NCBI GenBank assembly: GCA_045537905.1
Contig: JAZSQJ010000070.1
Span: forward strand, 5,628 to 69,627
DNA: 64,000 nucleotides
Reading direction: 5' to 3'
DNA from: Eubacteriales bacterium
Lineage (GTDB): Bacteria; Bacillota; Clostridia; Oscillospirales; CAG-382
Position numbers and translations under genes: made by a program. Positions 1 to 1,419 of this stretch are shown here, piece by piece (the first letter of the stretch is position 1; each line of letters begins with the position of its first letter). The notes under the pieces were generated by a model. That model was not told the origin of the DNA. It saw only the letters and a list, made by a program, of their open reading frames with translations, and did no database searches.

Positions 1-434
1 TCCAGCTTGTCTGCTATCTCCTCTACCCTGCCGATAAACTCGGGACCGAACACAAGCATATCTGCCTCTGCCAAGCCAAGACAGTACTTTATCTCGTCAG
101 CCGCATAACGGAAGTTAAGTGGTACAGCCAGGGCACCCGTTTTAAGGATGCCGAAATAGATAGGCAGCCACTCCAGACAGTTCATAAGCAATATTGCAAC
201 CTTGTCACCCTTGCCGATATTACGGGAGAGCAGAAAGTTTGCAAAACGGTTTGCCTTTTCGTTGAACTGTGCCCAGGTTATTTCCTTTCTGAAAGAGGAG
301 GCACCCGTTGCCTCGATAAGGTTATACTCCTTCCAGACAACACGGCGAGGCTGTGCCTCGGGATTAAGCTCCACCAATGCGGAATCCTGACCGTAAAGAT
401 CGCTGTTTTTTTCCAATAATTTTGTTATAGGCAT
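1..434 (-). CDS. AMP-dependent synthetase/ligase (ANL-family acyl-CoA synthetase-like), N-terminal ~144 codons; gene continues past the left edge
   Basis: ATG at 434-432, ten nt downstream of GGAGG (449-445, minus strand). The frame is open to the window edge, so it is missing from the ORF track. Own translation MPITKLLEKNSDLYGQDSALVELNPEAQPRRVVWKEYNLIEATGASSFRKEITWAQFNEKANRFANFLLSRNIGKGDKVAILLMNCLEWLPIYFGILKTGALAVPLNFRY... matches the N-terminal region of adenylate-forming CoA ligases. Confidence 0.8.
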   Translation of the reverse strand, partial: MPITKLLEKNSDLYGQDSALVELNPEAQPRRVVWKEYNLIEATGASSFRKEITWAQFNEKANRFANFLLSRNIGKGDKVAILLMNCLEWLPIYFGILKTGALAVPLNFRYAADEIKYCLGLAEADMLVFGPEFIGRVEEIADKL

Positions 435-458
435 AATGGATATACCTCCTTTGATTTA

Positions 459-495
459 CAAACTAAAACGGGTACTGCGGCATTGGCAGCACCCG
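459..495 (-). terminator. Intrinsic-terminator-like hairpin inside the 5' leader of the ligase gene (candidate attenuator)
   Basis: Minus-strand RNA reads CGGGUGCUGC-CAAUGCC-GCAGUACCCG (10-bp stem including one G.U pair, 7-nt loop) followed by UUUUAGUUUG. It lies between a leader sORF and the ligase RBS. Confidence 0.55.
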
Positions 496-550
496 ATAAA
501 CATCTCATAAAGCTGAAATATGCTTAACCTGTACAAAACGCCAACGCAAA

Positions 551-616
551 TCAAACGCAACAATAATAAGTGCAGTAATAATAAAATGCGTATGCGTAAA
601 TGCGTATATTAAACAT
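551..616 (-). CDS. 21-codon leader sORF MFNIRIYAYAFYYYCTYYCCV (7 Tyr, 3 Cys)
   Basis: ATG 616-614, TGA 553-551; GGAGG at 630-626 with a 9-nt spacer. It sits between a sigma-A-like promoter and a terminator hairpin. Too short for the ORF track; coding status unproven. Confidence 0.35.
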   Translation of the reverse strand: MFNIRIYAYAFYYYCTYYCCV

Positions 617-645
617 ACCCAAAAGCCTCCTTACAGGATATATGC

Positions 646-674
646 ATAATAACACAATTTTTACCCTTTGTAAA
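646..674 (-). promoter_or_regulatory. Sigma-A-type promoter for the ligase leader
   Basis: Minus strand TTTACA (674-669), 17 nt, TATTAT (651-646), with TG at -15/-14 (extended -10). Confidence 0.5.
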
Positions 675-789
675 GGCTTTTCCCTTAAAAAAACACAAAT
701 TAATATAGTATAATTGCGGGGTTTACAAAAAATTCACCAACTTTTACCGTGGCTGTGTATAATATTCTTATGACTTGGAGGTGTTTTAT

Positions 790-1419
790 TTGAAATATAC
801 ACATATAATCTGGGACTTTAACGGCACTATACTGGACGACGTTTTGCCCTGCCTGGACGTGGTTAACGCCCTGCTTGACAGGCGCGGACTTAAAACCGTT
901 AACATTGATACGTATAAAAAGGTGTTTGGCTTCCCTATCAAGGACTATTACAGGGCTGTTGGCTTTGATTTCAGCGTGGAAAGCTATGAGGAGCTGGCTG
1001 ACGAATGGGCAGAGCTATACCGAAATGCTGCCGAAAGCTGCACCCTTTGCGAAGGAGTTGAGAGTGCCCTCGCCCACTTTGCCTCCCTTGGTCTGAAGCA
1101 GATAATACTTTCCGCTACAGAAAAGAATTTGTTAAGGGCACAGCTTGCCCCTTTAGGAATTGAAAGCTATTTTGAGGAGACCCTTGCACTGGATAACCTC
1201 CTTGCCGTAAGCAAGGTGGAGCTGGGCAAGGAATGGATAAAAAGAGAGCGTCCCCAAAAGGCACTGTTTATCGGTGACACCGTACACGACTTTGAAACTG
1301 CAAAAGCAATGGGAGTGGACTGCGTGCTTATCGCCAAAGGACACCAGTGCAAGAAGCGTTTATCCGCTATGGGAGTACCCGTTTTGGATAGTGTTTTGGA
1401 TTTGATAAAGCTGATATAA
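790..1419 (+). CDS. HAD-superfamily hydrolase (phosphoglycolate-phosphatase-like subfamily IA)
   Basis: ORF track 775..1419. The likely start is TTG 790, 7 nt after GGAGG (778-782). Motif I WDFNGTILDD (Asn at the Asp+2 position instead of the usual DxDGT), motif II ILSATEKN, motif IV FIGDTVHD. Confidence 0.8.
   Translation: MKYTHIIWDFNGTILDDVLPCLDVVNALLDRRGLKTVNIDTYKKVFGFPIKDYYRAVGFDFSVESYEELADEWAELYRNAAESCTLCEGVESALAHFASLGLKQIILSATEKNLLRAQLAPLGIESYFEETLALDNLLAVSKVELGKEWIKRERPQKALFIGDTVHDFETAKAMGVDCVLIAKGHQCKKRLSAMGVPVLDSVLDLIKLI

What the first reader, a model, noticed from the sequence alone, without database searches (positions are those of the whole stretch)
434..674. Promoter, Tyr/Cys-rich 21-codon sORF and terminator in front of an adenylate-forming ligase gene (candidate leader-peptide attenuator)
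The elements read in this order on the minus strand. First, TTTACA-17-TGtTATTAT (674-646). Then GGAGG (630-626), 9 nt and ATG (616), opening MFNIRIYAYAFYYYCTYYCCV* (7 Tyr and 3 Cys in 21 codons). Then a GC-rich 10-bp hairpin (495-469) followed by UUUUAGUUUG. Its only non-Watson-Crick pair is G.U in the minus-strand RNA but A.C on the other strand. About 20 nt further on come the ligase RBS and ATG (434). This is the layout of classical ribosome-mediated attenuators (trp/phe/his leaders). Those are rarely described in Clostridia, where T-boxes dominate. It would couple an acyl/aryl-CoA-ligase-type enzyme to Tyr (or Cys) tRNA charging. I see no T-box or known riboswitch signature in the leader.
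Basis: partly seen in the sequence, partly recalled or inferred. Interest (0 to 1): 0.6.

Follow-up and report, generated by a model that had tools for sequence, protein, structure and literature searches.

The report
Tyrosine-sensing leader-peptide attenuator of ligase gene
A tiny tyrosine-rich reading frame plus a switchable stop signal in front of an acyl-CoA ligase gene is conserved in related gut Clostridia and very probably turns the gene on when tyrosine-charged tRNA runs low; the mechanism is classical, but I found no published tyrosine-specific case, and it ties an unassigned enzyme to tyrosine supply.

Summary
Comparison with related genomes supports its interpretation.

- **Conservation.** The 21-codon ORF, its Shine-Dalgarno site and the terminator recur upstream of the orthologous ligase gene in 11 of 12 genomes of the genus with a close ortholog. 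The frame is preserved, all three stop codons are used, and TAT/TAC vary synonymously.
- **Other lineages.** Three further leaders (G016, STF1_220, UBA1752) differ in sequence but keep a run of Tyr codons followed by a terminator. Cys codons are not conserved.
- **Decisive link.** Three other orthologs (G017, Ruminococcus RGIG1720, MAG028) carry a bona fide T-box instead. All three have the Tyr specifier UAC.
- **Antiterminator.** The invariant GCGUUGGC just after the stop codon pairs with the invariant GCCAAUGC at the end of the terminator's 5' arm and in its loop. The Tyr-codon segment (ACGCA repeats) pairs with GCGUUGGC as the anti-antiterminator.
- **Limits.** This three-state model is computational. 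RNA-seq data were uninformative.
- **Other targets.** Similar Tyr leaders precede aroF-tyrA, a tyrosine phenol-lyase-like gene and a symporter in metagenomes.

Verdict: a real, new member of the classical leader-peptide attenuator class, specific for tyrosine. The ligase probably serves tyrosine supply.

The parts
646..674 (-). Promoter-like site: -35 TTTACA (674-669), 17-nt spacer, TG-extended -10 TATTAT (651-646)
   Evidence: 10 of 12 matches, TG present. CTTTACAA and the TGnTAnnAT block are conserved in all genus leaders.
626..630 (-). Shine-Dalgarno GGAGG of the leader ORF, 9 nt before the ATG
   Evidence: A GGAG(G) at matching distance is present in all 14 leaders.
551..616 (-). Leader ORF, 21 codons plus stop (MFNIRIYAYAFYYYCTYYCCV*). 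The 7 Tyr codons lie at 598-596, 592-590, 583-575 and 568-563.
   Evidence: The frame is kept across the genus, indels are whole codons, TGA/TAG/TAA occupy the same position, and TAT/TAC vary synonymously.
610..618 (-). Segment A (GUAUGUUUA, includes the start codon). In the untranslated RNA it pairs with segment B.
   Evidence: RNAalifold consensus. Helix 1 has 3 pairs with changes on both sides.
587..595 (-). Region 1: GCAUACGCA inside the Tyr-codon stretch, the 5' strand of the anti-antiterminator (1:2)
Evidence: helix 3, 96.6% of cells paired.
554..576 (-). Inner hairpin of the 1:2 structure (ACUGCACU ... GUUGCGUU), made of the last codons of the ORF
   Evidence: helix 5. G-C changes to A-U at one pair in 4 versus 7 sequences. 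These changes are the R/C and A/S differences in the peptide.
540..548 (-). Region 2: UGCGUUGGC, starting 2-3 nt after the stop codon. It pairs either with region 1 or with region 3.
   Evidence: Invariant in 11 genus leaders. Pairings.
518..526 (-). Segment B (UAAGCAUAU). It pairs with segment A (off state) or with segment A' (on state).
   Evidence: helix 1; helix 3.
498..503 (-). Segment A' (AUGUUU), a conserved block just upstream of the terminator and a repeat of the start-codon region
   Evidence: Direct repeat D1, conserved block, helix 3.
480..495 (-). Region 3: terminator 5' arm and loop. GCCAAUGC (487-480) is complementary to region 2.
   Evidence: The loop sequence is invariant in the genus. 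All 8 pairs form in 100% of sequences. UBA1752 has the same pairing with one base missing on each side.
469..495 (-). Intrinsic terminator hairpin (3:4), 10 bp, -17.4 kcal/mol
   Evidence: helix 6: 99% of cells paired, one pair changed on both sides (C-G to U-A) and four changed on one side.
459..468 (-). U-rich tail UUUUAGUUUG
1..449 (-). Ligase Shine-Dalgarno (449-445), ATG (434) and the first 144 codons of a 544-aa AMP-forming acyl-CoA ligase. The gene runs off the window and is complete in the genome contig.
   Evidence: PF00501 plus PF13193; best NCBIfam match PRK06187, below its cut-off; nearest solved relatives are FadD13, feruloyl-CoA and 4-coumarate-CoA ligases.

Best explanation
This is a ribosome-mediated transcription attenuator that senses tyrosyl-tRNA.

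Transcription starts near 639 and the 21-codon leader ORF is translated.

- **Tyr-tRNA plentiful.** The ribosome runs to the stop codon (553-551). Its footprint covers region 2 (UGCGUUGGC, 548-540). The terminator (495-469) then folds and transcription ends at the U-tract, before the ligase gene.
- **Tyr-tRNA scarce.** The ribosome stalls on the Tyr codons (598-563) and so masks region 1. Region 2 is left free to pair with the terminator's 5' arm and loop (GCCAAUGC, 487-480), helped by the B:A' helix. The terminator cannot form and the ligase gene is transcribed.
- **No translation.** Region 1 pairs with region 2, segment A pairs with segment B, and the terminator forms.

Shown here: the elements exist, they are conserved, and the gene is linked to Tyr. 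Inferred: the antiterminator pairing and the ribosome logic.

By inference, the ligase helps supply tyrosine. It may activate a 4-hydroxyphenyl carboxylic acid for conversion to Tyr.
For: **The sORF looks translated and its Tyr run is the conserved part**
- sORF, Shine-Dalgarno site and terminator are conserved upstream of ligase orthologs in 11 of the 12 same-genus genomes that carry a close (88-91% identical) ortholog. G010's only ligase hit is 69% identical and lacks the leader. Three further leaders from other lineages have the same layout.
- The frame is kept, indels are whole codons, three different stop codons occupy the same position, and TAT/TAC vary synonymously.
- Only the Tyr run is common to all four lineages. 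The N-termini, C-termini and Cys codons vary.

**The gene is linked to tRNA-Tyr independently**
- Three other orthologs carry an Rfam T-box above the gathering score, 43-58 nt upstream of the ligase start codon. Each has the specifier UAC, Tyr.
- The same way of reading the specifier gives Leu for leuA, Trp for trpB and Phe for a PaaK-family gene in this genome.
- Among 98 distinct orthologs, the only upstream sORFs that look like leaders are Tyr-rich; the other residue-enriched ORFs are isolated, unconserved hits. No T-box motif turned up beyond the three UAC ones, but Rfam itself was run on only about 35 of the loci.

**Alternative structures**
- Off-state structure: 94.5% of cells paired, 7 pairs changed on both sides, 0 of 500 shuffles as good.
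- With the Tyr run masked and the 3' arm not yet transcribed, the minimum-energy fold pairs region 2 with the terminator 5' arm and loop in all 14 leaders.
- The on state lies within 0-8 kcal/mol of the off state.
- UBA1752 shows a full thermodynamic switch: P(terminator) 0-0.1 when stalled at Tyr codons 1-6, and 0.98 when free or at the stop codon.
- UBA1752's helix is UUUGCGUGGC/GCCAUGCAGA. This is the genus motif with one base missing on each strand.
- Region 2 always starts within -9 to +6 nt of the stop codon.

**Independent Tyr-rich leaders elsewhere**
- Tyr-rich leader plus terminator units precede a DAHP synthase-prephenate dehydrogenase operon, a tyrosine phenol-lyase/tryptophanase-family gene and a symporter in metagenome contigs.
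Against: - There is no experimental evidence. The one metatranscriptome run shows only two low-depth contigs inside the ligase gene and none over the leader. The other runs are of unknown kind.
- Within the genus the 8-bp antiterminator helix is invariant, so it has no covariation support there.
- The region 2:3 complementarity is only modestly better than dinucleotide shuffles in single leaders (p = 0.09, 0.22, 0.043, 0.0005).
- Equilibrium folding keeps the terminator in most stalled states of the genus leaders. The switch must therefore be kinetic.
- Bacillota are classed as 'runaway transcription' species, in which RNA polymerase outpaces ribosomes (PMC13323073). This makes ribosome-coupled attenuation harder, so a polymerase pause would be needed.
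- The genome has a full shikimate operon with tyrA that lacks such a leader. The ligase's role in Tyr supply is therefore not obvious.
Confidence: 0.8

Rival explanations
1. The nascent Tyr-rich peptide acts as an arrest peptide that senses free tyrosine or another small molecule in the ribosome tunnel, in the manner of TnaC. Alternatively the sORF controls the ligase at the level of translation or mRNA stability rather than through codon starvation.
For: The core YAYxYYYY is conserved as peptide as well as codons. Equilibrium folding of the genus leaders does not abolish the terminator when a ribosome is placed on Tyr codons.
Against: - In three lineages the same gene is controlled by a T-box that reads uncharged tRNA-Tyr. 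This points to tRNA charging, not free Tyr.
- The peptide sequence outside the Tyr run is not conserved between lineages.
- The terminator lies 28-43 nt before the ligase start in all leaders. This fits transcriptional control.
Confidence: 0.07
2. The sORF is an independent small-protein gene, for example a Tyr/Cys-rich peptide precursor, with its own terminator. It merely lies upstream of the ligase gene.
For: The ORF has a strong Shine-Dalgarno site, a conserved frame and its own promoter and terminator. The genus peptides end in Cys-rich tails.
Against: - Only 34 nt separate the terminator stem from the ligase start codon, and the promoter scan found no minus-strand site there.
- The Cys residues are not conserved and covary with an RNA helix.
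- There are no peptide-modifying genes nearby.
- The unit is always attached to this ligase, and is replaced by a Tyr T-box elsewhere.
- Similar units precede aroF-tyrA.
Confidence: 0.04
3. The conserved leader is a protein- or ligand-binding element, and the ORF is incidental. It could be a riboswitch-like RNA, or the opposed ACGCA/TGCGT repeats could be a DNA operator for a transcription factor.
For: Several blocks are invariant (UUUGCGUUGGC, GCCAAUGC, AUGUUUA) and the pentamers form an inverted array. Other orthologs have leaders without an sORF, for example L058 with alternative hairpins and L016 with repeated palindromes.
Against: - The invariant blocks are accounted for by mutually exclusive RNA pairings.
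- The stop-codon position, frame and Shine-Dalgarno site are conserved with synonymous variation.
- Unrelated leader sequences in other lineages keep the Tyr run and the same layout.
- No Rfam family matches.
Confidence: 0.05

Closest known systems
Classical leader-peptide attenuators of Proteobacteria (E. coli trpL-trpEDCBA, pheL-pheA, pheM-pheST, hisL, leuL, thrL)
   Same: A short translated ORF has a run of codons for the sensed amino acid. Three overlapping pairings (1:2, 2:3, 3:4) are present. The stop codon is placed so that a terminating ribosome masks region 2. An intrinsic terminator lies just before the structural gene.
   Different: - The sensed residue is tyrosine. I found no published Tyr-specific leader.
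- The host is a Clostridia-class Bacillota, not a proteobacterium.
- The regulated gene is an acyl-CoA ligase, not a biosynthetic operon or an aminoacyl-tRNA synthetase.
- There is no sequence or Rfam similarity.
- An extra pair of alternative helices (A:B and B:A') involves the start-codon region.
Corynebacterium glutamicum aroR leader peptide upstream of aroF (Neshat et al. 2014, as summarised in PMC11802643 and PMC4046766)
   Same: It is a leader peptide with aromatic codons that controls a gene of aromatic amino-acid supply by ribosome stalling.
   Different: AroR has Phe-Tyr-Phe and responds to Phe; Tyr availability is reported not to affect it. Here there are 7-8 Tyr codons and at most 2 Phe. 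The orthologous gene is under a Tyr T-box elsewhere. The phylum and the target gene also differ.
Tyr-specific T-box leaders (B. subtilis tyrS type; Rfam RF00230)
   Same: The physiological signal (uncharged tRNA-Tyr) and the output (antitermination at an intrinsic terminator) are the same. Three orthologs of this very ligase gene carry such a T-box with a UAC specifier.
   Different: The window's leader has no T-box features. It senses through the translating ribosome rather than by direct tRNA binding.
Leader peptides predicted in Firmicutes: His leaders before hisS paralogs and hisZ in Bacilli (Naville & Gautheret 2010, PMC2965389)
   Same: An amino-acid-specific leader peptide replaces a T-box within Firmicutes. 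That paper described this as previously unknown outside Proteobacteria and Actinobacteria.
   Different: The amino acid (His versus Tyr), the class (Bacilli versus Clostridia) and the target genes differ, and the sequences are unrelated.

Membership tests
Ribosome-mediated (leader-peptide) transcription attenuator | Short ORF with a ribosome-binding site inside the 5' leader of the regulated gene | tested here: met
   GGAGG, 9 nt, then ATG. The ORF has 21 codons. Shine-Dalgarno site, start codon and frame are conserved in 14 leaders.
Ribosome-mediated (leader-peptide) transcription attenuator | Cluster of regulatory codons for one amino acid, conserved while the rest of the peptide drifts | tested here: met
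   There are 6-8 Tyr codons in every leader, including runs of 3-4. The N-termini, C-termini and Cys codons vary. This is the only such sORF in the genome.
Ribosome-mediated (leader-peptide) transcription attenuator | Intrinsic terminator between the leader ORF and the structural gene | tested here: met
   A 10-bp G+C-rich hairpin plus U-tract. All 14 leaders have a terminator 28-43 nt before the ligase ATG. Compensatory changes occur in the stem.
Ribosome-mediated (leader-peptide) transcription attenuator | Antiterminator that excludes the terminator, and whose formation depends on where the ribosome sits (regions 1:2, 2:3, 3:4) | tested here: inconclusive
   - The pairings are found in all 14 leaders when the Tyr run is masked.
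- UBA1752 switches fully in equilibrium folding.
- Against: the helix is invariant within the genus, so it shows no covariation. Shuffle p-values are 0.0005-0.22. Genus leaders keep the terminator at equilibrium.
Ribosome-mediated (leader-peptide) transcription attenuator | Readthrough rises when the cognate charged tRNA is scarce | not testable with these tools
   The evidence is indirect only. Orthologs in three lineages are under Tyr (UAC) T-boxes.
Ribosome-mediated (leader-peptide) transcription attenuator | Short terminated leader transcripts and full-length transcripts both exist in vivo | tested here: inconclusive
   One metatranscriptome holds two low-depth contigs inside the ligase gene and none over the leader. 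The data are contigs only and cannot show 3' ends.
T-box leader (RF00230) | Stem I with a specifier loop, plus the T-box antiterminator sequence | tested here: not met
   There is no T-box match in window 300-900 even at E up to 10. The same model scores 96-124 bits on true T-boxes of this genome and of the orthologous loci.
Rfam amino-acid leader families (Trp, Phe, His, Leu, Thr leaders and others) | Match to a curated covariance model | tested here: not met
   The window leader has no hit among 4227 families beyond chance-level matches.

The most novel reading that the evidence does not exclude
The Tyr leader and the Tyr T-boxes mark this widely conserved ligase (63-91% identical across gut Clostridia) as the activating enzyme of an unrecognised tyrosine-salvage route. 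The route would run from 4-hydroxyphenylacetate, or a related 4-hydroxyphenyl acid, to its CoA thioester. Indolepyruvate/arylpyruvate:ferredoxin oxidoreductase would then carboxylate it reductively to 4-hydroxyphenylpyruvate, which is transaminated to Tyr.

This would parallel the PaaK-family ligase that sits behind a Phe (UUC) T-box in the same genome. In three lineages the ligase is co-transcribed with an MFS transporter that could import the acid.

The case would also show that ribosome-coupled transcription attenuation operates in a phylum classed as having runaway transcription.
Probability: 0.3. Interest if true: 0.7.

Novelty: new member of a known kind. Interest (0 to 1): 0.55.

Why it matters
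**Regulation.** Leader-peptide attenuators are textbook regulators, but in the papers I could search none is dedicated to tyrosine. They are also regarded as rare in Firmicutes, where T-boxes do this job and RNA polymerase is thought to outrun ribosomes. Here a Tyr leader peptide and a Tyr T-box control orthologous genes within one bacterial family. That makes it a clean natural experiment on how two tRNA-charging sensors replace each other.

**Function.** The regulator also works as a functional label. An abundant gut and rumen Clostridia enzyme, annotated only as 'long-chain fatty-acid-CoA ligase', is evidently wanted when tyrosine is short. This gives a testable hypothesis: that it salvages 4-hydroxyphenyl acids, which are plentiful in gut contents.

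**Annotation.** The same Tyr-leader design before aroF-tyrA, a tyrosine phenol-lyase-like gene and a symporter suggests an unannotated class of regulators. Such a class could be used to define Tyr regulons in uncultured bacteria.

Tried and rejected
- **Rfam.** Searching the leader at a permissive threshold gave only chance-level hits.
- **RNA evidence.** One metatranscriptome run (X17) holds only two short contigs inside the ligase gene. X22 holds nothing. X11 and X13 are of unknown kind, probably DNA. No 5' or 3' ends can be read.
- **Equilibrium folding with ribosome masks.** I expected it to abolish the terminator in the genus leaders. It did so only in UBA1752 and partly in G009. I therefore turned to co-transcriptional (3'-arm-absent) folds and energy differences.
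- **Covariation of the antiterminator within the genus.** None is possible because both strands are invariant.
- **Metagenome scan with the sORF core.** It returned no further ligase leaders but did uncover other Tyr leaders.
- **A Thr-rich sORF candidate (C34).** It turned out to be the 3' end of a coding gene and was rejected.
- **MVLYIYYYIY upstream of L076.** It is just the promoter's -10 region and was rejected.
- **Source of the aroF-type Tyr leaders.** I looked for them in the window's order. The best DAHP synthase identity is only 62% and no Tyr sORF lies upstream of the top 30 hits, so they come from another order.
- **MFS transporter.** The transporter that follows the ligase in three lineages has no homolog in this genome.
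- **Cys as the sensed residue.** Rejected, because Cys is not conserved.
Full report
**1. The observation**

- The promoter-like site is TTTACA (674-669), a 17-nt spacer, and TG-extended TATTAT (651-646).
- GGAGG lies at 630-626, and 9 nt later comes ATG at 616.
- The ORF (616-551) reads MFNIRIYAYAFYYYCTYYCCV*, with 7 Tyr and 3 Cys.
- A 10-bp hairpin (495-469, 7 G-C pairs, -17.4 kcal/mol) has a single G.U pair that would be A.C on the other strand. It is followed by UUUUAGUUUG.
- The ligase Shine-Dalgarno site is at 449-445 and its ATG at 434.

The ligase gene runs off the window. In the genome contig it is a monocistronic 544-codon gene, with a convergent GNAT gene downstream and a divergent HAD hydrolase gene upstream. 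It has AMP-binding domains. Its best NCBIfam match is the PRK06187 'long-chain-fatty-acid-CoA ligase' subfamily, below that model's cut-off. Its nearest solved relatives are FadD13, FadD5, feruloyl-CoA synthetase and 4-coumarate-CoA ligases.

No Rfam family matches the leader. A genome-wide scan found no other Tyr-enriched short ORF with a Shine-Dalgarno site and a downstream terminator.

**2. Conservation**

The window's genome is a roughly 1.9-Mb MAG. Close relatives are labelled Oscillospiraceae, Eubacteriales or Clostridia and come from goat, sheep and rabbit gut.

The leader DNA is 71-83% identical upstream of the ligase ortholog in 11 of the 12 other genomes of the genus.
- Ten of these, besides the window's own, carry the sORF. 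The peptides include MYNISNFAYAYYYYRAYYCRG, MFDNRVFAYAYYYYRSYYCCG, MFELFVYTYAYYYRSYYCCG and MLDSRIYAYAYYYCYCAYYCRG.
- The exception is G004. It keeps the promoter and a terminator-like hairpin but has lost the sORF, and its ligase gene carries an in-frame TGA.
- G010 has only a 69%-identical ligase without the leader.

Several features indicate that the ORF is translated.
- The ATG and a GGAG(G) at the right distance are always present.
- Length differences are whole codons.
- The stop codon sits at one aligned position but is TGA, TAG or TAA.
- Tyr codons switch between TAT and TAC.

Three further leaders from other lineages have little nucleotide similarity but the same layout: a Shine-Dalgarno site, a 21-22-codon ORF with 6-8 Tyr, and a terminator 28-31 nt before the ligase ATG.
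- G016, another genus of the same family: MAFNYAYAYSYYYYAYSLSAV.
- MAG STF1_220: MLFNCVYAYSYYYYAYFKGAV.
- UBA1752: MLYTAYVYSYYYLGYSEAILRG.

Only the Tyr run is common to all. Cys is absent outside the genus.

**3. The link to tyrosine**

Three other orthologs, 69-73% identical, carry an Rfam T-box above the gathering score. Its 3' end lies 43-58 nt from the ligase start codon.
- G017, 123.7 bits.
- Ruminococcus sp. RGIG1720, 110.9 bits.
- Bacillota MAG028, 110.9 bits.

In all three the specifier position, GAA(A)-NNN-A before the 3' strand of stem I, reads UAC, which is Tyr.

The same way of reading gives sensible results for the four T-boxes of the window's own genome. It gives CUC (Leu) before leuA, UGG (Trp) before trpB and UUC (Phe) before a PaaK-family phenylacetate-CoA ligase. 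This serves as an internal control.

Among 98 distinct ligase orthologs, the only upstream sORFs that look like leaders are Tyr-rich. The few other residue-enriched ORFs are isolated and unconserved. No T-box motif appeared beyond the three UAC ones. Rfam itself was run on only about 35 of the loci, and the rest were screened by a motif pattern.

On a ligase tree, the genus clade, G016 plus STF1_220, UBA1752 and the RGIG1720 T-box all fall in one unresolved clade of 39 rows. The other two T-boxes lie elsewhere. Tyr-sensing leaders of two mechanistic kinds have therefore been attached to this gene several times, or exchanged.

**4. Mechanism**

RNAalifold on the 11 genus leaders gives an 'off' structure.
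- The start-codon region (segment A, 618-610) pairs with segment B (526-518).
- The Tyr-codon stretch GCAUACGCA (region 1, 595-587) pairs with UGCGUUGGC (region 2, 548-540).
- An inner hairpin is made of the last codons of the ORF.
- The terminator forms (regions 3:4).

On this structure 94.5% of cells are paired, 7 pairs change on both sides, and no shuffle out of 500 does as well. The R/C and A/S differences in the peptide tail are exactly the compensatory changes of the inner hairpin. That tail, and its Cys codons, are therefore shaped by RNA pairing rather than by sensing.

This is the last two bases of the terminator's 5' arm plus its loop. The pairing is extended by 3-4 pairs into the 5' arm and supported by a B:A' helix. 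Both strands are invariant in the genus, which is unusual for a terminator loop, and all 8 pairs form in every sequence.

Further folding results:
- With a ribosome footprint placed on the Tyr run and the 3' arm not yet made, the minimum-energy fold pairs region 2 with the terminator 5' arm and loop in all 14 leaders.
- This state lies within 0-8 kcal/mol of the terminator state.
- In UBA1752 the helix is UUUGCGUGGC/GCCAUGCAGA, the genus motif with one base missing on each strand. Equilibrium folding switches there: P(terminator) is 0-0.1 when stalled at Tyr codons 1-6 and 0.98 when free or at the stop codon.
- In G016 and STF1_220, region 2 (GCGGUCU and CGCGGUCU) is the end of the ORF and pairs with the terminator's 5' arm.
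- In every leader region 2 begins between 9 nt before and 6 nt after the first base of the stop codon. This is inside the footprint of a terminating ribosome, as the classical model requires.

Weak points:
- There is no covariation for the 2:3 helix within the genus.
- Shuffle p-values are modest (0.0005-0.22).
- At equilibrium the genus leaders keep the terminator, so the choice must be kinetic.
- No transcript data are available.
- Bacillota are classed as species in which RNA polymerase outruns ribosomes (PMC13323073), so a pause would be needed. The 1:2 hairpin followed by U-rich sequence could provide one, but that is speculation.

**5. Wider context**

It did reveal other Tyr-rich leader plus terminator units.
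- MKNITYAYYYY[WY]YSHK.CRVLAK* and variants precede a DAHP synthase (NF006421, above its cut-off) plus prephenate dehydrogenase operon.
- MQLFSNSYAYYYYGSRFKPAGVFA* precedes a tryptophanase/tyrosine phenol-lyase-family gene.
- MMKHSFAYAYYYYYYLTKR* precedes a sodium:solute symporter.

The first group again places a copy of the terminator's 3' arm at the end of the ORF. These units come from organisms outside the window's order and have no convincing Rfam match. They show that Tyr-codon leaders control undoubted Tyr genes.

Earlier notes of this scan report similar Tyr/Phe leaders in other genomes. I did not check those.

**6. What the ligase may do (inference)**

- The genome has a complete shikimate operon with tyrA.
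- It has an indolepyruvate:ferredoxin oxidoreductase alpha subunit above the family cut-off.
- It has a PaaK-family ligase behind a Phe T-box.
- Rumen bacteria are reported to make Phe from phenylacetate (PMC7356843).

By analogy, the Tyr-controlled ligase may activate 4-hydroxyphenylacetate or a related acid for reductive carboxylation to 4-hydroxyphenylpyruvate. In G016, STF1_220 and UBA1752 an MFS transporter gene follows the ligase, but not in this genome. This function is a hypothesis only.

**7. Comparison with what is known, and verdict**

The mechanism is that of trpL, pheL and hisL. The nearest published aromatic case I found is C. glutamicum aroR-aroF, whose leader has Phe-Tyr-Phe and reportedly does not respond to Tyr. 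Naville and Gautheret (2010) predicted His leader peptides in Bacilli and noted how unusual such systems are in Firmicutes. A 2005 survey lists tyrosine genes as controlled by T-boxes, not attenuators. I found no published Tyr-specific leader peptide.

Verdict: a real feature and a new member of a known kind. Confidence is about 0.8 for Tyr-sensing leader-peptide attenuation and about 0.6 for the specific 2:3 pairing.

Noticed in passing
L204 6350-6720 (minus strand); also L137, L139, L146, L147, L154, L162, L169, L187, L201, L208, L214, L242: Metagenome contigs carry a 23-codon Tyr-rich leader ORF (MKNITYAYYYY[WY]YSHK.CRVLAK* or MKHTYYAYYYYYYSHDCCRVLAK*). It starts about 10 nt after a TTGACA/-10 promoter, so it may be leaderless. 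A terminator follows, then a DAHP synthase, prephenate dehydrogenase and methyltransferase-like operon. The ORF's last codons copy the terminator's 3' arm. The source organism lies outside the window's order.
   Followed up: partly
L171 and L160 (sORF MQLFSNSYAYYYYGSRFKPAGVFA*); L188 534-591 (MMKHSFAYAYYYYYYLTKR*): Two more Tyr-rich leader plus terminator units. One precedes a tryptophanase/tyrosine phenol-lyase-family gene, the other a sodium:solute symporter.
   Followed up: partly
G000 contig C56:23830-24079 (minus strand), outside the window: A T-box with a Phe (UUC) specifier precedes a PaaK-family phenylacetate-CoA ligase and an ACT-domain gene. This suggests Phe-starvation-induced use of phenylacetate in the same organism.
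   Followed up: partly
L012 / L055 (G004, rabbit MAG Lapin-016 bin71), upstream of the ligase ortholog: The promoter and a terminator-like hairpin remain, but the sORF and regions 1-2 are deleted. The ligase gene has an in-frame TGA. The locus looks as if it is decaying in this species.
   Followed up: no
L014 (G024), about 60-100 nt upstream of the ligase ATG: The terminator hairpin has the core GCGCCAATGCCGC, like the window's GCTGCCAATGCCGCAG, but no Tyr sORF precedes it. It may be a remnant of the same attenuator.
   Followed up: no
L058, about 30-110 nt upstream of the ligase ATG: This ortholog has a leader with a strong terminator (CGTGCCGTTTTCC...GGAAAACGGCACG followed by a T-run) and possible alternative hairpins. 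It has no sORF and no Rfam hit, so its sensor is unknown.
   Followed up: no
L112 and L121 (MAGs labelled Spirochaetales / Treponemataceae): Ligase orthologs, 72% identical to the window's, nest inside a Bacillota clade of the ligase tree. This indicates either horizontal transfer or mis-binned contigs.
   Followed up: no
window 685-714 (+) and 775-1419 (+): A divergent promoter-like site (TTAAAA, 18-nt spacer, TATAAT) lies back-to-back with the leader promoter and faces a HAD-family hydrolase gene. The two promoters lie about 10 nt apart, back to back.
   Followed up: no
L057 8033-8280 (+): A Phe (UUC) T-box lies about 2.4 kb downstream of the ligase ortholog in an Acutalibacteraceae MAG. Its target gene was not examined.
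   Followed up: no
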